A stretch of DNA of 6,321 nt, taken from the IMG/VR virus record IMGVR_UViG_2675903396_000007; one strand, written 5' to 3'. The first letter of the stretch is position 1. Each line of letters opens with the position of its first letter. Below are positions 1-6,321 of the stretch, one piece after another. The notes under the pieces are model-generated. The model saw only the letters and a program-made list of their open reading frames with translations, was not told the origin of the DNA and made no database searches. Origin of the DNA: a virus (taxonomy: Duplodnaviria; Heunggongvirae; Uroviricota; Caudoviricetes). The position numbers and the translations under genes were made by a program.

Positions 1-159
1 ATAGGCCGCCACCGGCGTTTTTCCGGTAATTTTGTCCAGCATCACCTCTTCGGTATGGAAATTCACCGTACGGCGGAAAAACAGCTCCAGAAACAGCGCA
101 CGAAATTTCACTTTTTGTTCGGTATAACCGAGTAACTGGCGGGTCGTAAACAATCCCAT
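1..159 (-). CDS. E: Major capsid protein, lambda gpE-like; N-terminal 53 codons only, gene continues beyond the window start
   Basis: Not in the ORF track (no stop in window). Manual reverse-complement translation from ATG at 159..157 gives MGLFTTRQLLGYTEQKVKFRALFLELFFRRTVNFHTEEVMLDKITGKTPVAAY, which aligns with the recalled lambda gpE N-terminus (MSMYTTAQLLAANEQKFKFDPLFLRLFFRESYPFTTEKVYLSQIPGLVNMAL). AAAGGA Shine-Dalgarno about 8 nt upstream on the minus strand. Gene order D then E matches lambda. Confidence 0.8.
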   Translation of the reverse strand, partial: MGLFTTRQLLGYTEQKVKFRALFLELFFRRTVNFHTEEVMLDKITGKTPVAAY

Positions 160-187
160 AAATCAGTTCCTTTCATTCAGAAATCAG

Positions 188-216: not shown

Positions 217-564
217 TTACGGCAGCGCCGCGTGACTCAGGGCACTGCCGGCAAAGGCATTTGCCTTTTTGTGTTCATCCACACTTTCAGGCCAGCGGAT
301 TGCCTCCGTCGCAAAGGTCCCCGACTTGTAATAGGTCAGTACCGTCTCTGTGCCTTCAAGCGGCAGTACCAGTATGCCAACTGCACTACCGGCTTTCTGT
401 CCGTCCCAGACCACCAGTTTCCCGGTAGCTTCATCCAGCATCAGGGGCGTCAGTGCCGGTGTTGCCGAGGAAATCCCGCTGCTGCCTGTGGCGGTATGAG
501 CCGGATCATTACCGGCAAAAATACGTACTTCCGCACGCTGTTCAGTGATGTTTTTCGTTACCAT
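217..564 (-). CDS. D: Head decoration protein, lambda gpD-like
   Basis: ORF-track 115 aa (coordinates include the TAA stop). Aligns along its length with recalled lambda gpD, e.g. DPAHTAT, TPLMLD, KLV.WDG, AVGIL, YKSGTF, WPE, AFAG. ATG at 564..562 preceded by AGGAGG about 10 nt upstream on the minus strand. Confidence 0.9.
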   Translation of the reverse strand: MVTKNITEQRAEVRIFAGNDPAHTATGSSGISSATPALTPLMLDEATGKLVVWDGQKAGSAVGILVLPLEGTETVLTYYKSGTFATEAIRWPESVDEHKKANAFAGSALSHAALP

Positions 565-600
565 ATTGTAAAAACCTCCTGTTGATGGTCAGCACTGACT

Positions 601-1203
601 TCATGGCATGGCCATGAGCATTTTCACGTCCGCATCACCGTCTGCTGACGTCTGTGGCACGCCACCCTGTACCGCAGCCGGTGAATGGTTCGCCATGATG
701 CGTTCAAACAGGGCGGTTGTGGATGCAGAGACCGGTTCTGCCTTACCTGATCCCGCAGCCAGCACAGCCCGGGCGCTCTCCACAGTCATTCCCGGGCAGG
801 CAGCCAGCTGTTCAGCCTGCGCCTCAGCCCCTTTTGCCTCATCCAGTGCCATGATCTGATCACGGAGTGAGGGTCCGGCATCCGCCTGCGGTGAAGCAGC
901 CAGGATCGGGCGGGCTTTTTCCACCGTCATCTCCGGCATCGCCGCCAGCGTTGCCGCCAGTTGTTCACGACCGTTCGCTTCTTCACACGCCATAATGCGA
1001 TCGGCTTCACTCTGCGTGGATGCCACCGGCTGCTGCGGTGCCGCCGCAGCCAGAATCGCCCGGGCCTGTTCAACGCTCATGCCCTGTTGTCCTGCCAGCA
1101 TCGTGGCAAGCTGTTCACGTCCTTTCGCTTCCTGGCATGTCAGGATCCCCATCACTCGCTGGTTCTCCTGCGCGGCGGCTTCCGTTGCAGTTAATTGCGG
1201 CAT
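601..1203 (-). CDS. nu3: Nu3-like scaffolding protein from an in-frame internal start within the gpC-like gene (about 200 aa)
   Basis: In-frame ATG at 1203..1201 (Met302 of the gpC-like ORF) is preceded on the minus strand by AGAGGAGGCACT, i.e. AGGAGG plus a 4-nt spacer. The recalled lambda sequence has the same arrangement (AGGAGGGCGA-ATG) at the equivalent GGRM position, where I believe the Nu3 scaffold starts. Inferred by analogy, not demonstrable from sequence alone. Confidence 0.55.
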   Translation of the reverse strand: MPQLTATEAAAQENQRVMGILTCQEAKGREQLATMLAGQQGMSVEQARAILAAAAPQQPVASTQSEADRIMACEEANGREQLAATLAAMPEMTVEKARPILAASPQADAGPSLRDQIMALDEAKGAEAQAEQLAACPGMTVESARAVLAAGSGKAEPVSASTTALFERIMANHSPAAVQGGVPQTSADGDADVKMLMAMP

Positions 1204-2106
1204 AGTGCCTCCTCTGACATTACTGTTCAGCGCCGTGGCCATCACACTGATGGCATCCGACGCATTGACTAATTCATCCGCCAGCCCGGCATCAATGCCG
1301 GACTGACCTTCAAAAACGGCGGCCTCTGTTCCCGTGACGGCATCAACAGACAGACCGGTAAACATCGCCACTTTTTCGGCAAACATCCGGCGCGCCGCAT
1401 CAATGCGCTGCTGCATGTCCTGGCGAACCTCTGCCGGTAAGGCTTCAAACTGATTGCCATCCACCTTGTGCGCCCCTGAGTAAATCAGCGTGATATCCAC
1501 ACCGGCCTGCGCCAGATGACCGGCATAGCTGACATGGCTCATCATCACGCCAATGGAGCCGATACGGGATGTCTGGGTAACCAGCCGTCGGGAGCAGGCC
1601 GACGCCAGCAGCATGGCTGCAGAACAGGCCGTGTCATTGCACAGTGCCCAGACCGGCTTCTGCTGACGGAGGCGGTAAATCATGTCAGCGCAGTCAAACG
1701 CGCCGGCGGCCTGCCCGCCCGGACTGTCAATGTCCAGCAGTACGCCCCGCACCTGGCTATCCGCCATTGCCTGCTGAAGACAGGCGACAATGCCGTCATA
1801 GCCTGTCATTCCGGAAAATGGCCGCATACCCCCCAGCCGGTGCACCAGCGTGCCGGTCACCGGCAGTACAGCAATACCGTTCACCACCCGGTAAACACGG
1901 GCCGGTCGTTTACCTCCGGCCATGTACTCGTCCGTTTCAGCCAGCATTCCGGGAGCATCAAGCTGTACCTGCTGCTGTGGTACCGAAAGACTTGCTGCCC
2001 CCATCTCGCGCCCGAGCGCGCAAAAGAAAACCCGCGCATAGGCGGGCTCCAGAAGCAGCGGTTCATTGAATGCTGCGGCAATAATGTGTGAAAGATTACG
2101 TCTCAC
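601..2106 (-). CDS. C: Head maturation protease / scaffold fusion, lambda gpC-like (S49/ClpP-like peptidase domain, C-terminal scaffold repeats)
   Basis: ORF-track 501 aa. N-terminal two-thirds aligns closely with recalled lambda gpC (AFNEPLLLEPAYARVFFCAL, NGIAVLPV.GTLV, SGMTGY.GI, FDCAD.I.R, KPVWAL, SRRLVTQT, GSIGVMM.H, ITLIYSG.HKVDGN, AGLADELVN). Start is GTG at 2106..2104, as I recall for lambda C. It is 62 aa longer than my recollection of lambda gpC (439 aa), owing to C-terminal repeats. Confidence 0.9.
   Translation of the reverse strand: MRRNLSHIIAAAFNEPLLLEPAYARVFFCALGREMGAASLSVPQQQVQLDAPGMLAETDEYMAGGKRPARVYRVVNGIAVLPVTGTLVHRLGGMRPFSGMTGYDGIVACLQQAMADSQVRGVLLDIDSPGGQAAGAFDCADMIYRLRQQKPVWALCNDTACSAAMLLASACSRRLVTQTSRIGSIGVMMSHVSYAGHLAQAGVDITLIYSGAHKVDGNQFEALPAEVRQDMQQRIDAARRMFAEKVAMFTGLSVDAVTGTEAAVFEGQSGIDAGLADELVNASDAISVMATALNSNVRGGTMPQLTATEAAAQENQRVMGILTCQEAKGREQLATMLAGQQGMSVEQARAILAAAAPQQPVASTQSEADRIMACEEANGREQLAATLAAMPEMTVEKARPILAASPQADAGPSLRDQIMALDEAKGAEAQAEQLAACPGMTVESARAVLAAGSGKAEPVSASTTALFERIMANHSPAAVQGGVPQTSADGDADVKMLMAMP
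690..1160 (-). repeat. Three to four diverged tandem copies of a roughly 150-bp (about 50-codon) coding unit within the scaffold portion of the gpC-like gene
   Basis: Protein-level repeats with anchor Met at residues 319, 372, 419 and 471: RVMGILTCQEAKGREQLATMLAGQQGMSVEQARAILAAA / RIMACEEANGREQLAATLAAMPEMTVEKARPILAAS / QIMALDEAKGAEAQAEQLAACPGMTVESARAVLAAG / ERIMANH. Also visible in DNA, e.g. 961..1002 ctgttcacgaccgttcgcttcttcacacgccataatgcgatc versus 1111..1150 ctgttcacgtcctttcgcttcctggcatgtcaggatcccc. Confidence 0.7.
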
Positions 2107-3688
2107 GGGGTGTTGTCTCCTCTTCCGGCCTGCGACTCTCCGCTATCTGCTGCTGATACGCCTGCGCTATCCACACCGGACGTGAGAGTCCGGCTTTTTG
2201 CCGCTCTGCAGATTCCCTGACCTGCTGGCGGAAAATGTCCTGATAATCCTCGCCCATCAGCGCCAGCTCTTTCTCATACGTGCTCAGTCCGGCCTCAATG
2301 CGCATCACCGATTCCTGAACCTCCTTGAGCCCGTCAATGGCCATTCTTCCGGCTCCAATCCACTCTGCCCGTGACCAGGCTGATCGCGCCTGATAAAAAT
2401 CAAAACGTGCCCGTGGCGGACGAATAATCCCCCGAAGAAGTGCCTCTTCCAGCCAGCAGGAAAACATCTGCGTGGCCAGCCGGGCCGCAATAAATTTTCG
2501 CCGCCCCATAAAATAGCGCCACGACTCATTGGCGGAGGCGCGGGCACTTGAGTAACTGACCTTCGAGTAATCACGGGACAACTGTTCGTAGGAAACGCCA
2601 AGACCGGCGGCGATATACCGCAGCAACGCCTGTTCAAGCGCAGAAAATCCATTGTCTGAATCCTGCGCAGTCTGTAGTTTCAGATCATCACCAGGGAAAA
2701 GGTGCGGAATTTTGACACCGCCCAGTGTCACGTTATTCGTGTCATACCAGCTGGAGAACTTCTCCAGAATATTAATAAGCGGATTATCTTTCTGCTCCTG
2801 TGGCGCGCCGGCGATATATTCAAAGGCCTTTTCGGTATCAAGTTCACTTTCAATCGTCGCTGCATACATCGCCTTCACTATGGCCGACTGAAGCTGTGTT
2901 GCCTGCAGGGAATCGAGCATCTTCAGCCGTTCCATGACGCTGTAAAACTGGTTGGCCCCACGGGTCTGCCCGTCCTCCACCGGCTCGAAAATATGCAGCA
3001 TGGCCGGACGCCCGGTGGGAAGTTCACGCGGGATCCGTTCCCATCGTCCACTCCCGGAGAACGGAAAATCATCCTCACAGATATGGTACGCAACGGCACG
3101 GCCATATCGATCGACCTCCACCCCGGCCCGCAGAAAACGGTTCCCCATACCGTGTCCTGGCGTGTCCACCCGTTTCGGACTCACGGCTTTAAAACGCGTA
3201 CGGAATAACTGCGTGGTTTCCGTATCCCAGACCGGCTGCACAAAGATTTCGCCGTTAAACGCATGAACGCCCACACCTTCACGGATAAATTCCGTGAACG
3301 TGCGTTTTCCTTCCACGTCGATCTCGCCAGACATCCCTTCGGCGTATTCCGACCAGGCCGCCTCCACCTCATCGACAAAGCTTTTTGCTGCGGTCTCCCG
3401 CATCCCCAGCCAGCGCCAGTTCGGACGGTAGCTGATCAGAAACATATGCCCGACAATGTGATCCTTATGCAGAGCCACCGCATTAGCCGCTATTCCGTTA
3501 TTGCGCACCAGATCATCTGCCCGGGCATTCCCCAGACGCAACGCGGGCAGCAGGGCCGCATCGGCACTCTGCGCCGGTGGCAACCACTCAGCCATTTGCC
3601 CGCCAAATCCTGCACCGCCCCCGTTGTAGCTGAGACTCTCACGAAGCGGAACGCCGTTCACATCAATCAGGACAGGCGTTCGTTTCAT
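2096..3688 (-). CDS. B: Portal protein, lambda gpB-like
   Basis: ORF-track 530 aa. Extensive alignment with recalled lambda gpB (GGG.GFGGQ, DAALLP, GNARADDLVRNNG, HAFNGE.FVQ, LFRT.F, VSPKR, IPRELP, F.PVEDGQTRGAN.FYSVME, QSAIVKAMYAATIESELDT, LLRYIAAGLGVSYEQLSR, SARASANESW.YFMGRRKF, GRMAIDGLKEVQE, IEAGLSTYEKE). ATG at 3688..3686 overlaps the gpW-like stop (ATGA). Confidence 0.95.
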   Translation of the reverse strand: MKRTPVLIDVNGVPLRESLSYNGGGAGFGGQMAEWLPPAQSADAALLPALRLGNARADDLVRNNGIAANAVALHKDHIVGHMFLISYRPNWRWLGMRETAAKSFVDEVEAAWSEYAEGMSGEIDVEGKRTFTEFIREGVGVHAFNGEIFVQPVWDTETTQLFRTRFKAVSPKRVDTPGHGMGNRFLRAGVEVDRYGRAVAYHICEDDFPFSGSGRWERIPRELPTGRPAMLHIFEPVEDGQTRGANQFYSVMERLKMLDSLQATQLQSAIVKAMYAATIESELDTEKAFEYIAGAPQEQKDNPLINILEKFSSWYDTNNVTLGGVKIPHLFPGDDLKLQTAQDSDNGFSALEQALLRYIAAGLGVSYEQLSRDYSKVSYSSARASANESWRYFMGRRKFIAARLATQMFSCWLEEALLRGIIRPPRARFDFYQARSAWSRAEWIGAGRMAIDGLKEVQESVMRIEAGLSTYEKELALMGEDYQDIFRQQVRESAERQKAGLSRPVWIAQAYQQQIAESRRPEEETTPRET

Positions 3689-3891
3689 AACCTCACTCCC
3701 AGCGGACGACGGCGACGCCGGGTTGTCCCCAGTACCGACTCCGCATCATTGATCGCCCGGTTAAGCTCATCCAGAGAAGCCGCCGTATATTCAATTCTGC
3801 GACCATCTTTCTGGACAGACACCACCCGTTTACCGGTTAATAAATCAAGGCGCGCCTGACGCAGCGCCTGCAGTTCAGCGACTGTAACCAT
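3685..3891 (-). CDS. W: Head-tail joining / head completion protein, lambda gpW-like
   Basis: ORF-track 68 aa, MVTVAELQALRQARLDLLTGKRVVSVQKDGRRIEYTAASLDEL...RRRRPLG, versus recalled lambda gpW [43 protein letters not shown]...QRRRGPAG. Same length class; GGAGGAG Shine-Dalgarno 5 nt upstream of the ATG at 3891. Confidence 0.9.
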   Translation of the reverse strand: MVTVAELQALRQARLDLLTGKRVVSVQKDGRRIEYTAASLDELNRAINDAESVLGTTRRRRRPLGVRL

Positions 3892-5584
3892 TCACTCCTC
3901 CGGACAGCTTCGCTGCCAGTTCTTTCAGGGTTGGCCGGGTCGTCTCTTCTTCCCGGGATTTTGCCAGTACAGCCAGATCAAGCTGCCAGCGTTGCACGGA
4001 CACACGTAATGCCGCGTAGGCATACACCAGGCAGTCCAGCGCTTCGTTACGCCGCTTTTTGTTATCCCACAGCAGACGCATCTTTCCTTTTTCCCACTTC
4101 TCCACCAGCTCTTCCGCCACCAGTTGCTGCGCCTCTGTCTGCGAAAAAATCTCCGGATCATCAGGAAAACGGATGGCATACGACGTGGCTTCATCCGCAG
4201 GCGTGGGATCGGCTTTCATACGGGCATAGAGAATTTCTTTTGCGGTGTCCGTTCCCACTTCACACAGATACACGCCCCGCTGATTGCGGGTTTTCGGCAT
4301 GGTGATCACCGGCTTGCCATAGACAGACGCGCCTTTTACCGGCAGCACCCGGAAAACACCGTGTTTTTTTGATCTCTGATAAACAATTTCACCATCGATC
4401 CCCCCGGTGTCCCAGCAGACACGGGAAATAGTCATTTCGGTGCCATCCGCATGGCGGTATTTTTTGTTGATCGCCGCATCCACACGTAACAGCGTCTCTT
4501 CCTCATCGGGACGCCCCATAATGATGATTTTATCCACCAGAAAGGCTTCCTCTCCCGGAGCCCATCCCCAGACATACATCTCAAAACGGTTTCGCTGCGA
4601 GTCAATGCCCGCCGTCAGATAAACCACCCGGGAAGGCACCGCAGCCGTGTAACGCACAACCTTATCCATCAGTACCTGGTGATCGAGTTTTTCGCCCACG
4701 GCCTCTTCCCAGGTCTCGCCCAGCGTGGTGTTCACAAAGGTTTTCAGGCCGTTGGGATCTTTCAGTGCATCCAGCCAGTCATAGACAATCTGTACCCAGG
4801 TGGTGAACGGACTGTACGCCGTCCAGATATGGAACGTGATGGAGCGCGGCGGCGGAATTTCATCACCCCGGGCGCTGAAAAACGTCAGACCGTCACGGGT
4901 CCACATGCCCGTGTTTTCACAGATCCACCGCCCGTTGCTCTGGTCCAGTTCAGACTGATGGATCACGCAGCCATGATGTTCACAGAGGTAGAAAACACTT
5001 TCAGGGCTGTCCTTCTCCCATTTAAGCCCAAAAGGCGTGGACTCATCGCCAAATTTCAGATACTGCGCCTCCCCACAGTGCGGGCAGGGCACATAAAAAC
5101 GCATAAAATGCGCCGACTCGTTAGCGGCTTTTTCGATCTGGCAGGTGCCTTTGATTTTAGGCGTCGAGCCGCGAATGGATTTTGGCCACACCGACCCCTC
5201 AATACGCTTATCCCCCAGCAGGGTTGGCGAGCCCTCTTTTTCGACATCCGGCTCGAACGAGGAAAGTTCGTCATAGCAGACCACGTCAACGGATTTTTCA
5301 CGGTAGTTTTTGGCGGCAGCGCCGCCCAGGCACCAGAAACCGACGCCCGATGAAAAGCGTTTCAGCGTGAGAGTATTGTCACGATGTTTACGACCCAGCC
5401 ATGGGGAAAGGTCTTTCAGGCATGGCACGTTCCGAATCGTCGCCTCCACGTGAGACTTCATAAAATCTTCAGCGGCAGAATCCGTGGGCTGAAAAAGCAG
5501 ACTGTTTCGGGATTTATGCTCAATAAAATACCCGACCACCCCCAGCAACATCTTTGTATAGCCAACACGGGCAGATTTAATCAG
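3875..5584 (-). CDS. A: Terminase large subunit, lambda gpA-like; 5' end missing (interrupted by the N-run), C-terminal about 569 codons intact
   Basis: ORF-track 606 aa, but residues upstream of the Ns are a frame artefact. From LIKSARVGYTKMLLGV (Walker A-like region, immediately 3' of the gap) to the stop, the protein is colinear and highly similar to recalled lambda gpA (KSARVGYSKMLLGV, KKHRDNTLT.KRF, GFWCLGG.AAKNYREKSVDV, SPT.LGDKRIEGSVWPKSIRGSTPK, HFMRF.V.CPHCGE.QYLKFGD, FYLCEH, HIWTAYSPFTTWVQIV, FVNTTLGETWE, LTAGIDSQ, VWGWGPGEE, ISR.CWDTGGID, YGKPV, WD.KKRRNEALDC). Confidence 0.95.
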   Translation of the reverse strand: MIKSARVGYTKMLLGVVGYFIEHKSRNSLLFQPTDSAAEDFMKSHVEATIRNVPCLKDLSPWLGRKHRDNTLTLKRFSSGVGFWCLGGAAAKNYREKSVDVVCYDELSSFEPDVEKEGSPTLLGDKRIEGSVWPKSIRGSTPKIKGTCQIEKAANESAHFMRFYVPCPHCGEAQYLKFGDESTPFGLKWEKDSPESVFYLCEHHGCVIHQSELDQSNGRWICENTGMWTRDGLTFFSARGDEIPPPRSITFHIWTAYSPFTTWVQIVYDWLDALKDPNGLKTFVNTTLGETWEEAVGEKLDHQVLMDKVVRYTAAVPSRVVYLTAGIDSQRNRFEMYVWGWAPGEEAFLVDKIIIMGRPDEEETLLRVDAAINKKYRHADGTEMTISRVCWDTGGIDGEIVYQRSKKHGVFRVLPVKGASVYGKPVITMPKTRNQRGVYLCEVGTDTAKEILYARMKADPTPADEATSYAIRFPDDPEIFSQTEAQQLVAEELVEKWEKGKMRLLWDNKKRRNEALDCLVYAYAALRVSVQRWQLDLAVLAKSREEETTRPTLKELAAKLSGGVNGYSR

Positions 5585-5640
5585 NNNNNNNNNNNNNNNN
5601 NNNNNNNNNNNNNNNNNNNNNNNNNNNNNNNNNNNNNNNN
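5585..5640. other. Run of 56 N: assembly or scaffold gap of unknown true size
   Basis: Directly visible. By analogy with lambda the missing stretch should encode the last dozen or so Nu1 codons and roughly 70 N-terminal gpA codons, i.e. considerably more than 56 nt. Confidence 0.95.
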
Positions 5641-5642
5641 AG

Positions 5643-6119
5643 TAAATCCGGTAATTTATCCCCTGCCCGCGCACACTGATTTGCCCCCTTAGCAATAAGG
5701 GTTTTCAGATGGTCAAGATGGCGCGGTGTTAAATCAGGAAACTGTCGCTGCATGGATAAAGGGATGGAATCAAGCGTACTGGATAACGCCATTGCCAGCT
5801 TACTGAGGGCAAAAATACAGAACCCGGTGTCAATAAGTTTTCCTTTTGACACCTCATTTTTTAACTGCTGTGTAACAGCCTGTTCTGCTGTCAGTTCCCA
5901 TCTGGCAATAAGCAATTTCTCCTCATAGTCGTCTTCGCTATCGCCATCAGGCACATCGTTTTTACTTCTCCTCAGATACGATATGTAAAAATCGCGCCAG
6001 GCATCCAGATCCAGTTGCCCTCGCTTATTCGATATCGGGGCACCCGGCAATTTCTGCAATCTGCGAAGCTGGCGATCGGTCAGACTTAAATGCCTGGCAA
6101 CTTCAGTCTGCGTAGCCAC
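5643..6119 (-). CDS. nu1: Terminase small subunit, lambda Nu1-like; 3' end missing (runs into the N-run)
   Basis: ORF-track 180 aa, of which the first 159 residues are real sequence. C-terminal half aligns with recalled lambda Nu1 (TGFCIFALSKLA....LD.IPLSMQRQFPDL..RHLDHLK versus TAFCTFVLSRIA....LDGLPLSVQRRFPELENRHVDFLK). N-terminal region resembles the Nu1 winged-HTH segment. GTG start at 6119 with GAGGTGAGGA immediately upstream and an in-frame stop 1 codon upstream. Sits directly downstream of cos, as in lambda. Confidence 0.88.
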
Positions 6120-6154
6120 TCCTCACCTCGCAAAAACTCTCACCTCACAATCAC

Positions 6155-6270
6155 AACAAAACCGGTCATGTCCGGTTTACATGTCTGTTTTTTGTTCATG
6201 TCCGGTTCACAGAAGACCTGTTTTTATATTTTTCATATAGTTAACTTGAAGAGAAACCGGACATGGATCC
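6155..6270. promoter_or_regulatory. cosB-like terminase small-subunit binding region: three copies of an 11-bp element flanking an AT-rich spacer
   Basis: CATGTCCGGTT at 6167..6177 and 6197..6207 (direct) and its reverse complement AACCGGACATG at 6255..6265 (inverted), with a 47-bp AT-rich spacer (6208..6254) between the second and third copies. This mirrors the lambda cosB layout cosN-R3-I1(IHF)-R2-R1-Nu1. Assignment as R sites is inference. Confidence 0.6.
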
Positions 6271-6302
6271 CGGAAAATTTTCATAAATAGCGAAAACCCG
6301 CG

Positions 6303-6314
6303 AGGTCGCCGCCC
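6303..6314 (-). other. cosN: 12-nt cohesive-end site (GGGCGGCGACCT on the minus strand)
   Basis: Reverse complement of 6270..6321 reads GGTTACGGGGCGGCGACCTCGCGGGTTTTCGCTATTTATGAAAATTTTCCGG, which matches the lambda cos junction as I recall it (right-end ...GGTTACG, then left-end GGGCGGCGACCTCGCGGGTTTTCGCTATTTATGAAAATTTTCCGG). Confidence 0.85.
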
Positions 6315-6321
6315 CGTAACC

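What the first reader, a model, noticed from the sequence alone, without database searches (positions are those of the whole stretch)
6270..6321. Lambda-identical cosN at the extreme right edge of the window
The 12-nt cohesive end and about 33 bp on its Nu1 side match lambda exactly, plus 7 bp of lambda right-end sequence (GGTTACG) before the window ends. cos is therefore internal to a longer sequence, so this is a prophage, circular or concatemeric form rather than a virion end. cosQ and, by lambdoid gene order, the lysis cassette should lie just beyond 6321. Packaging would proceed from 6314 leftwards through nu1, A, W, B, C, D, E.
Basis: partly seen in the sequence, partly recalled or inferred. 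Interest (0 to 1): 0.5.

Follow-up and report, generated by a model that had tools for sequence, protein, structure and literature searches.

The report
Lambda-type cos site, non-lambda cosB
The right edge of the window really does hold the DNA-cutting site (cosN) of phage lambda, letter for letter, but it belongs to a common E. coli lambdoid prophage whose adjacent recognition site and small terminase are of a different, uncharacterised type, so it is an ordinary feature with a modest twist.

Summary
Observation confirmed. Window 6270..6321 (minus strand) matches lambda at 52 of 52 bases: GGTTACG, then the 12-nt cohesive end GGGCGGCGACCT (6314..6303), then 33 bp. The match stops abruptly at bp 45 from the nick.

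Past that point lies a complete cosB that is neither lambda's nor phage 21's:
- R3, CATGTCCGGTTT, at bp 50-61
- an IHF-like site at bp 72-84
- an inverted R2 at bp 107-118
- a composite R1 at bp 137-156

The positions are canonical. Next comes a Nu1-family small terminase whose N-terminal DNA-binding domain shows no sequence similarity to lambda or 21, then gpA-type TerL and head genes 97% identical to phage 21.

The window is near-identical (4 mismatches in 6265 bases) to a chromosomal prophage of E. coli O157:H7 LSU61.

This cos/terS type occurs in about 1130 of 5426 complete E. coli genomes. It also occurs in plaque-forming PhiR12 phages.

In Klebsiella, Salmonella, Enterobacter and Citrobacter relatives, R3-I1-R2 keeps an exact 69-bp geometry. 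One R-site base covaries with one TerS helix residue.

Verdict: a real, ordinary lambdoid cos. Interest is low, with a minor point in the uncharacterised cosB/TerS specificity.

The parts
6315..6321 (-). Last 7 bp of the right chromosome end (GGTTACG), upstream of the l-strand nick. cosQ would lie beyond the window.
   Evidence: Exact match to lambda. In relatives L003 and L126 the sequence continues ...GGGTCCTTTCCGGCGATCCGACA|GGTTACG.
6303..6314 (-). cosN: the 12-nt cohesive-end sequence GGGCGGCGACCT. The nicks fall between 6315|6314 (minus strand) and 6303|6302 (plus strand).
   Evidence: Identical to lambda. The nick positions are inferred from lambda and phage 21 annotation and from PMC9026076.
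6270..6302 (-). 33 bp identical to lambda (bp 13-45): the right flank of cosN and the cosN-to-cosB spacer. The mosaic boundary lies at 6270|6269.
   Evidence: The exact run of 52 ends here. These bases are invariant or nearly so in 113 related loci.
6254..6265 (-). R3-type TerS binding site CATGTCCGGTTT (bp 50-61), same orientation as packaging.
   Evidence: Motif search: five matches with at most 2 mismatches lie within 6159..6265 (six in the whole window), against 0.59 expected for the whole window. Same position as R3 of phage 21 and lambda, bp 50-65 (PMC9026076). Kept at bp 49-62 in Klebsiella, Salmonella, Enterobacter and Citrobacter relatives.
6231..6243 (-). I1-like IHF site TAACTATATGAAA (bp 72-84), 2 mismatches to YAANNNNTTGATW, the same count as lambda's own I1.
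   Evidence: An IHF-like element lies at offset 23 from R3 in 6 of 7 lineages, with 0 mismatches in three of them. Phage 21's I1 is annotated at bp 74-86.
6197..6208 (+). R2-type site (CATGTCCGGTTC on the plus strand, bp 107-118), inverted relative to R3.
   Evidence: Phage 21's R2 is annotated at bp 107-122 in opposite orientation. The R3-to-R2 segment is exactly 69 bp in all 7 lineages.
6159..6178 (.). R1 region: near-palindrome AAACCGGACATGACCGGTTT. It is an inverted perfect copy (bp 137-148) overlapping a forward 11/12 copy (bp 145-156). A weaker inverted copy lies at 6180..6191.
   Evidence: The position corresponds to R1 of phage 21 (bp 150-166); from my own recollection, not checked here, lambda's R1 is at about bp 143-158.
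5641..6119 (-). Small terminase gene (terS, Nu1 family), GTG start at 6119. The 3' end is hidden by the N run. The full protein in relatives is 169 aa (WP_000235436.1).
   Evidence: Pfam Phage_Nu1, E = 1e-18, matching residues 49-150 only. Residues 64-169 are 40-46% identical to 21 gp1 and lambda Nu1; the N-terminal 60 aa show no similarity. The AF2 model gives strand-helix-helix-wing-helix for residues 1-54.
5585..5640 (.). Run of 56 N (mask or assembly gap) in place of 221 bp that hold the terS stop and the terL start in every relative.
3875..5584 (-). Large terminase (terL, gpA type), visible part.
   Evidence: Pfam GpA_ATPase (2e-48) and GpA_nuclease (1e-71). 97% DNA identity to phage 21 gene 2.
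217..3891 (-). Head genes in lambda order: W (3685..3891), portal B (2096..3688), S49 protease/scaffold C (601..2106), decoration protein D (217..564). The first 159 nt of the major capsid gene E occupy 1..159.
   Evidence: ORF list. RefSeq annotation of the near-identical LSU61 prophage, mapped onto the window.

Best explanation
This is the packaging-initiation site (cos) of a lambdoid E. coli prophage.

Shown:
- The window holds a cosN identical to lambda's.
- Beside it lies a complete cosB of canonical R3-I1-R2-R1 geometry, built from a different repeat (CATGTCCGGTTT).
- Next comes a Nu1-family small terminase with a replaced N-terminal DNA-binding domain.
- After that come a gpA-type large terminase and phage-21-like head genes.

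Inferred mechanism, from the lambda/21 paradigm:
1. IHF bends the DNA at I1, so that R3 and the inverted R2 face each other.
2. A dimer of TerS winged-helix domains docks on R3 and R2.
3. TerS bound at R3 positions two TerL protomers on cosN.
4. TerL nicks 12 bp apart (between 6315|6314 and 6303|6302). The GGGCGGCGACCT 5' overhang becomes the left end.
5. DNA is then translocated leftwards in window coordinates (terS, terL, W, B, C, D, E ...) until the next cosQ-cosN is met.

Specificity:
- cosN and the roughly 260 bp to its right are the lambda-type block shared by much of the E. coli lambdoid pool.
- cosB, terS and the first ~75 nt of terL form a separate exchange module. This module sets packaging specificity.
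- That specificity is probably distinct from lambda, 21 and N15.
For: - The match to lambda is 52 of 52 bases, with zero chance expectation.
- Five copies of the 12-mer (at most 2 mismatches) cluster within 107 bp, against 0.59 expected in the whole window.
- The copies sit at bp 50, 107 and 137/145. Annotated phage 21 has R3 at 50-65, I1 at 74-86, R2 at 107-122 (inverted) and R1 at 150-166. The order R3-I1-R2-R1 with R2 inverted is the rule for lambda-like phages (PMC9026076).
- Seven lineages were compared: E. coli twice, Klebsiella, Salmonella twice, Enterobacter and Citrobacter. TerS is 60-80% identical among them. The R3-to-R2 segment is always 69 bp, although the spacers have diverged.
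- In 6 of the 7 lineages an IHF-like site lies at offset 23.
- TerS helix ...LRRLQK goes with ATGTCCGGTT. ...LR(D/N)LQK goes with A(T/C)TTCCGGTT. This is what a recognition-helix contact would give.
- TerS matches Pfam Phage_Nu1 and TerL matches GpA_ATPase plus GpA_nuclease.
- The predicted N-terminal fold is strand-helix-helix-wing-helix, with pLDDT about 80. The weak structural neighbours are MerR/excisionase-type winged helices and chain 6hn7_B, from the entry of the paper on PICI redirection of helper-phage packaging.
- PhiR12_1 to PhiR12_5 carry the same cos/terS at 96% identity. Their deposited hosts are K-12 and E. coli C, so they are propagated phages.
- DNA similarity to phage 21 resumes about 75 nt into terL.
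Against: - No physical ends were mapped. Nicking, IHF binding and TerS binding are inferred.
- The window ends 7 bp past the nick, so cosQ and the upstream genes are seen only in relatives.
- The TerS domain matches to solved structures are not significant (best E = 0.49).
- The covariation rests on seven lineages and perhaps two or three independent changes.
- The prophage could be defective elsewhere.
- The terS/terL junction is masked by N.
Confidence: 0.9

Rival explanations
1. The cos belongs to a cryptic, non-inducible prophage remnant, like the Qin or DLP12 cos-nohA regions of K-12. It would be intact in sequence but no longer used by its own phage, and at most a target for terminase of a superinfecting phage of the same specificity.
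For: K-12 Qin keeps a perfect lambda-type cosQ-cosN-cosB plus nohA next to deleted head genes. EHEC genomes carry up to 8 copies of related regions. A related prophage in O103:H2 12009 has an IS3 element in its late region.
Against: Every ORF visible in the window (terS, terL, W, portal, protease, D) is full length. The whole head-tail module is intact in the near-identical LSU61 prophage. Plaque-forming PhiR12 phages use the same cos/terS.
Confidence: 0.25
2. This is the cos of a phage-inducible chromosomal island (PICI) or another satellite that borrows a lambda-type cosN with its own cosB, in order to hijack helper terminase through Rpp.
For: PICIs of E. coli carry a cosN like that of lambda-like helpers and a cosB of quite different sequence at the analogous position (PMC9026076; PMC6739421).
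Against: The site is followed directly by its own terS, terL, portal, protease and decoration genes. The repeat motif also covaries with the adjacent TerS across genera. A satellite would lack these genes.
Confidence: 0.02
3. The match is cosmid or lambda-vector contamination, or a chance match at the edge of the window.
For: Lambda cos is a common vector element, and the match lies at the very edge of the window.
Against: Identity to lambda stops at bp 45. Cosmid cos fragments carry lambda cosB and nu1. The junction cosN/non-lambda cosB is reproduced exactly in hundreds of complete E. coli chromosomes and in 113 IMG/VR loci. Chance expectation is 0.
Confidence: 0.01

Closest known systems
Bacteriophage lambda cos (cosQ-cosN-cosB) with Nu1/gpA terminase
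   Same: - The cosN cohesive end, 7 bp to its left and 33 bp to its right are identical.
- In relatives, about 260 bp of right-end sequence including cosQ is lambda-like.
- The R3-I1-R2-R1 layout is the same.
- TerS residues 73-164 are 46% identical to Nu1.
- The gene order nu1-A-W-B-C-D-E is the same.
   Different: - The R sequences are CATGTCCGGTTT, not CGTTTCC(G/T)TTCT.
- There is no DNA similarity from bp 46 to about bp 760.
- The TerS N-terminal domain has no detectable sequence similarity to Nu1, and Pfam Phage_Nu1 does not cover it.
- The head genes are only about 70% identical to lambda at the DNA level.
Bacteriophage 21 cos and terminase (gp1/gp2)
   Same: - The head genes from terL onward are 97% identical.
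- R3 and R2 start at the same base positions (50 and 107).
- The 21 R core (CGTGTCGG / CATGTCGG) resembles CATGTCCGG.
   Different: - The cosN flank of 21 differs from lambda and from the window at several bases.
- The R core differs by one inserted base and in its flanks.
- gp1 residues 1-80 show no similarity to this TerS.
- DNA similarity begins only about 75 nt into terL.
Phage N15 / Monarch packaging specificity
   Same: This is another Nu1-family TerS with a swapped DNA-binding domain on a conserved C-terminal body. Some database proteins (P0060, P0069, P0083) join the N15-type domain to this family's body. One relative (L142) has the N15 cohesive end GGGCGGCGTCCG.
   Different: cosB of N15 has a single R3 and no IHF site (PMC9026076, PMC4669245). 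Its R3 sequence and recognition helix are unrelated to those found here.
Escherichia phages PhiR12_1 to PhiR12_5 (PV340549-PV340554) and the prophages of EHEC O157, O145 and O103
   Same: They have the same cosN, cosB repeats and TerS. DNA identity is 96% to the PhiR12 phages and 100% over 681 bp to many EHEC chromosomes.
   Different: None of substance. In those records the cos subsites are not annotated, and a spurious 'hypothetical protein' is called across cosB.

Membership tests
Lambda-type cohesive-end site (cos) of lambdoid phages | cosN: a 12-nt 5' cohesive-end sequence with partly symmetric flanks | tested here: met
   GGGCGGCGACCT with flanks, 52/52 identical to lambda.
Lambda-type cohesive-end site (cos) of lambdoid phages | cosB: three R repeats and an IHF site in the order R3-I1-R2-R1, with R2 inverted and R3 near bp 50 | tested here: met
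   Repeats lie at bp 50-61 (forward), 107-118 (inverted) and 137-156. An IHF-like site lies at bp 72-84. The geometry is conserved in 7 lineages. Actual binding was not tested.
Lambda-type cohesive-end site (cos) of lambdoid phages | cosQ (GGGTCCT) about 30 bp upstream of the nick, needed for termination | not testable with these tools
   It lies beyond window position 6321. It is present in L003, L126 and PhiR12_1, and is invariant in 113 IMG/VR loci that carry the same cosB.
Lambda-type cohesive-end site (cos) of lambdoid phages | Adjacent genes for a Nu1-family TerS and a gpA-family TerL | tested here: met
   Pfam PF07471, PF05876 and PF20454.
Lambda-type cohesive-end site (cos) of lambdoid phages | Virion DNA ends with 12-nt 5' overhangs at this site | not testable with these tools
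   This needs end mapping of virion DNA.
Lambda packaging specificity (cosB-lambda / Nu1 DNA-binding domain) | R sequences of lambda type (CGTTTCC(G/T)TTCT) at R3, R2 and R1 | tested here: not met
   No similarity beyond bp 45 in an ungapped comparison or in blastn.
Lambda packaging specificity (cosB-lambda / Nu1 DNA-binding domain) | TerS N-terminal winged-helix domain homologous to Nu1 residues 1-68 | tested here: not met
   BLASTP aligns residues 73-164 only. The Pfam Nu1 profile matches from profile position 62 onward. A search of PDB sequences finds no Nu1 domain. The predicted fold class is similar, but the structural matches are not significant.
Phage 21 packaging specificity | R sequences of 21 and the gp1 DNA-binding domain | tested here: not met
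   The 21 R sites (AATCGTGTCGGTACTT and others) differ. gp1 aligns only from residue 83.
PICI / satellite cos | cos without adjacent terminase and head genes, and the presence of rpp | tested here: not met
   A full terS-terL-W-B-C-D module follows the site.

The most novel reading that the evidence does not exclude
The cosB-terS-(terL 5' end) module defines a further lambdoid packaging specificity. It would not cross-react with lambda, 21 or N15. It is widespread in EHEC and other enterobacterial prophages. Within it, a single recognition-helix residue (TerS Arg22 versus Asp/Asn) reads one base pair of the R repeat (ATGTCC versus ATTTCC/ACTTCC), which splits the family into sub-specificities. 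Because cosN is shared with lambda, these prophages could exchange cohesive-end-compatible DNA while keeping packaging private.
Probability: 0.55. Interest if true: 0.3.

Novelty: new member of a known kind. Interest (0 to 1): 0.2.

Why it matters
The cosN itself adds nothing new. It is lambda's site in one of the commonest prophage families of E. coli. It is still useful for annotation:
- It fixes the virion ends and the packaging direction of this prophage type.
- It shows that the 'hypothetical protein' called across cosB in deposited records is probably spurious.

The modest scientific point is that a very common cosB/TerS pair appears not to have been characterised. It occurs in about a fifth of complete E. 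coli genomes, including O157, O145 and O103 EHEC. It provides a natural series for studying how TerS winged-helix domains read R sites, and which co-resident prophages and satellites can be packaged by which terminase.

Tried and rejected
- A scan of genome contigs for a 27-mer spanning the cosN/cosB junction found nothing. The source contig was therefore not identified, and the window could not be extended directly.
- The search for related loci on genome contigs gave only 6 loci. They were not used.
- Three literature searches were run: for PhiR12 and its accession numbers, for ECOR/lambdoid recombinant phages, and for cosB in O157 prophages. They found no description of this cosB type.
- The strict IHF consensus WATCAANNNNTTR with at most 1 mismatch finds nothing in the window. 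The I1 candidate has 2 mismatches, as lambda's I1 does.
- A sequence search of the PDB with TerS found nothing relevant.
- The Foldseek search of the AF2 model gave only non-significant matches to winged helices.
- NCBIfam has no model for this TerS.
- I checked whether K-12 Qin nohA is of this type, because some database names suggest it. It is not; it is lambda-type.
- An apparent 165-bp 'deletion' at the terS/terL junction turned out to be a run of N in the window.

Full report
**1. The observation**

Read on the minus strand from the window end, 6321..6270 is GGTTACG GGGCGGCGACCT CGCGGGTTTTCGCTATTTATGAAAATTTTCCGG. Laid against a lambda record (PV340536.1, L002), the exact run from the window end is 52 bases. 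After it the two sequences are unrelated. The 52-mer occurs once in the window with no mismatch, and never in 200 shuffles. Megablast finds the same 52 bases at 100% in lambda, DE3 (annotated 'cos site'), HK629, HK630 and dozens of other lambdoid records.

**2. What lies next to it**

After bp 45 the window holds a full cosB, but not lambda's. The 12-mer CATGTCCGGTTT occurs five times within 107 bp (at most 2 mismatches), against 0.59 expected for the whole window. The copies are:
- forward at bp 50-61 (window 6254..6265)
- inverted at bp 107-118 (6197..6208)
- a weak inverted copy at bp 124-135
- an inverted perfect copy at bp 137-148, overlapping a forward 11/12 copy at bp 145-156 (together 6159..6178, a near-palindrome)

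Between the first two copies lies TAACTATATGAAA (bp 72-84, window 6231..6243). It departs from the IHF consensus at two positions, exactly as lambda's proven I1 does.

The annotated phage 21 genome places R3 at 50-65, I1 at 74-86, R2 at 107-122 (inverted) and R1 at 150-166. The review by Murialdo and Feiss states that R3-I1-R2-R1 with R2 inverted is the general layout of lambda-like cosB sites (PMC9026076). The anatomy is therefore canonical and only the repeat sequence differs.

**3. The genes**

The ORF starting with GTG at 6119 is the small terminase.
- Pfam Phage_Nu1 matches only residues 49-150.
- BLASTP against lambda Nu1 and 21 gp1 aligns only the C-terminal two thirds, at 46% and 40% identity.
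- The first ~60 residues match nothing in Pfam above threshold and no PDB sequence.
- An AlphaFold model from a 26-sequence alignment (A1) gives strand, helix 4-10, helix 15-22, a loop/wing and helix 38-54. pLDDT is about 80 for this domain.
- Foldseek neighbours are weak (E >= 0.5). They are consistently MerR/excisionase-type winged helices, plus chain 6hn7_B from the paper on PICI redirection of helper packaging.
- I take the domain to be a winged helix-turn-helix analogous to that of Nu1. That is an inference.

Downstream are a gpA-type TerL, W, portal, S49 protease/scaffold, the decoration protein and the first 159 nt of the major capsid gene. All of these are about 97% identical in DNA to phage 21.

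A run of 56 N (5585..5640) hides the terS stop and the terL start. Every relative has 221 bp there.

**4. Where it comes from and what lies beyond 6321**

- Reverse-complement bases 1-681 of the window are 100% identical to chromosomal prophages of many EHEC strains, for example O103:H2 12009.
- The whole window differs at 4 of 6265 bases from a prophage of E. coli O157:H7 LSU61.
- In LSU61 the sequence upstream of the nick is about 260 bp of lambda-like right end, including cosQ GGGTCCT. Further upstream are a YlcI/YnfO gene, a PerC-family gene, an Rz-type lysis gene, lysozyme, holin and a SASA-family esterase.
- O103:H2 12009 and phage PhiR12_1 show the same order with different inserts.
- Among 113 IMG/VR loci with the same cosB and enough upstream sequence, cosQ is invariant and cos is always internal.
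- About 1130 of 5426 complete E. coli genomes hold at least 80% of the cos-terS query.
- In the phage collection this TerS domain occurs at 100% identity only in PhiR12_1 to PhiR12_5, whose deposited hosts are K-12 and E. coli C. Phages with this cos are therefore viable.

They cannot be tested in the window itself.

**5. Comparative test of cosB**

Contigs encoding TerS relatives of 60-80% identity were fetched. The source names of the proteins are Klebsiella pneumoniae, Salmonella enterica (twice), Enterobacter kobei, Citrobacter amalonaticus and a second E. coli type.
- In all of them a forward ...TCCGGTT... repeat and an inverted copy bound a segment of exactly 69 bp, although the spacer sequences have diverged.
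- In 6 of the 7 lineages an IHF-like site lies at offset 23, with a perfect consensus in three.
- Where the cosN nick could be placed (all lineages but L140, where my search did not find it), the forward repeat starts at bp 49-52.
- The repeat covaries with the protein. TerS ...LRRLQK goes with ATGTCCGGTT (window, L131, L141, L142). ...LR(D/N)LQK goes with ATTTCCGGTT or ACTTCCGGTT (L127, L129, L140).
- This is what a recognition-helix contact (Arg to G) would give. The sample is small and not corrected for phylogeny.
- The cohesive-end sequence itself varies among these relatives, and one has the N15 type. The lambda-identical cosN is therefore a property of the E. coli lambdoid pool, not of this TerS family.

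**6. Mosaic structure**

Blastn was run on the nearest relative against lambda, 21 and N15.
- Similarity to lambda covers bases 1-52 only, and returns at about 70% from base 767.
- Similarity to 21 covers cosN (95% over 41 bases) and resumes at base 758, about 75 nt into terL.
- cosB, terS and the terL 5' end thus form one exchange module.
- This fits established knowledge from lambda/21 hybrids: the TerS N-terminus reads cosB, and the TerS C-terminus binds the TerL N-terminus.

**7. Mechanism**

The shown and inferred steps are set out under Best explanation. The sequence anatomy and its conservation are shown. IHF bending, TerS docking on R3/R2, TerL nicking 12 bp apart and leftward translocation are inferred from the lambda paradigm (PMC9026076, PMC4669245).

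**8. Rivals**

- A cryptic remnant is possible but not favoured, because the ORFs are intact and viable PhiR12 phages exist.
- A PICI cos is excluded by the adjacent terminase and head genes.
- Vector contamination and chance are excluded by the abrupt end of lambda identity at bp 45 and by the exact recurrence of the junction in hundreds of chromosomes.

**9. Verdict**

This is a real, ordinary lambdoid cos. The recognition half of the site and the small terminase belong to a different type that is common and, as far as my searches show, not experimentally described. Interest is low (0.2). In kind, it is a new member of a known family.

Noticed in passing
window 5585..5640: A run of 56 N replaces 221 bp that every relative has here (the terS 3' end and the terL 5' end). 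It makes ORF listing report a false 180-aa terS and a false 606-aa terL.
   Followed up: yes
window 1..160 (start of the major capsid gene); Aeromonas phage AP1 MT713136.1 250152-250311: A 254-kb Aeromonas jumbo-phage record holds a 160-bp stretch 98.8% identical to this E. coli lambdoid capsid gene, near the end of the record. This is probably contamination or misassembly in that record (H50).
   Followed up: no
window 6090..6290 (+): A 66-aa ORF lies across cosB and the R sites. The equivalent is annotated as 'hypothetical protein' in PhiR12_1 and other phage records. It is probably not a gene.
   Followed up: partly
alignment A1 (P0060, P0069, P0083): Some TerS proteins join an N15-type N-terminal DNA-binding domain (MAFLLNKSDMASSIGIS...) to the C-terminal body of this family. 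The domain is therefore exchanged as a module.
   Followed up: no
L142, L129, L141, L131 (upstream of terS): Relatives with the same TerS family have different cohesive-end sequences: GGGCGGCGTCCG (as in N15), GGGCGGCAGCGT, GGGCGACGCGCT and GGGCGCTAACCC. cosN and cosB evolve independently.
   Followed up: partly
L003 2005..3218 (E. coli O103:H2 12009): In this otherwise identical cos context, an IS3-family element interrupts a Rha-family regulator gene between the lysis genes and cos.
   Followed up: no
E. coli genome search with window 5500..6321: 38 of the 8620 matching places are on plasmids. They could be phage-plasmids or cos-bearing constructs.
   Followed up: no
L126 285..2135 (E. coli O157:H7 LSU61): The nearest relative has a SASA-family carbohydrate esterase gene just upstream of the holin. 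From general knowledge, not tested here, this arrangement is typical of Stx-phage-like late regions.
   Followed up: no
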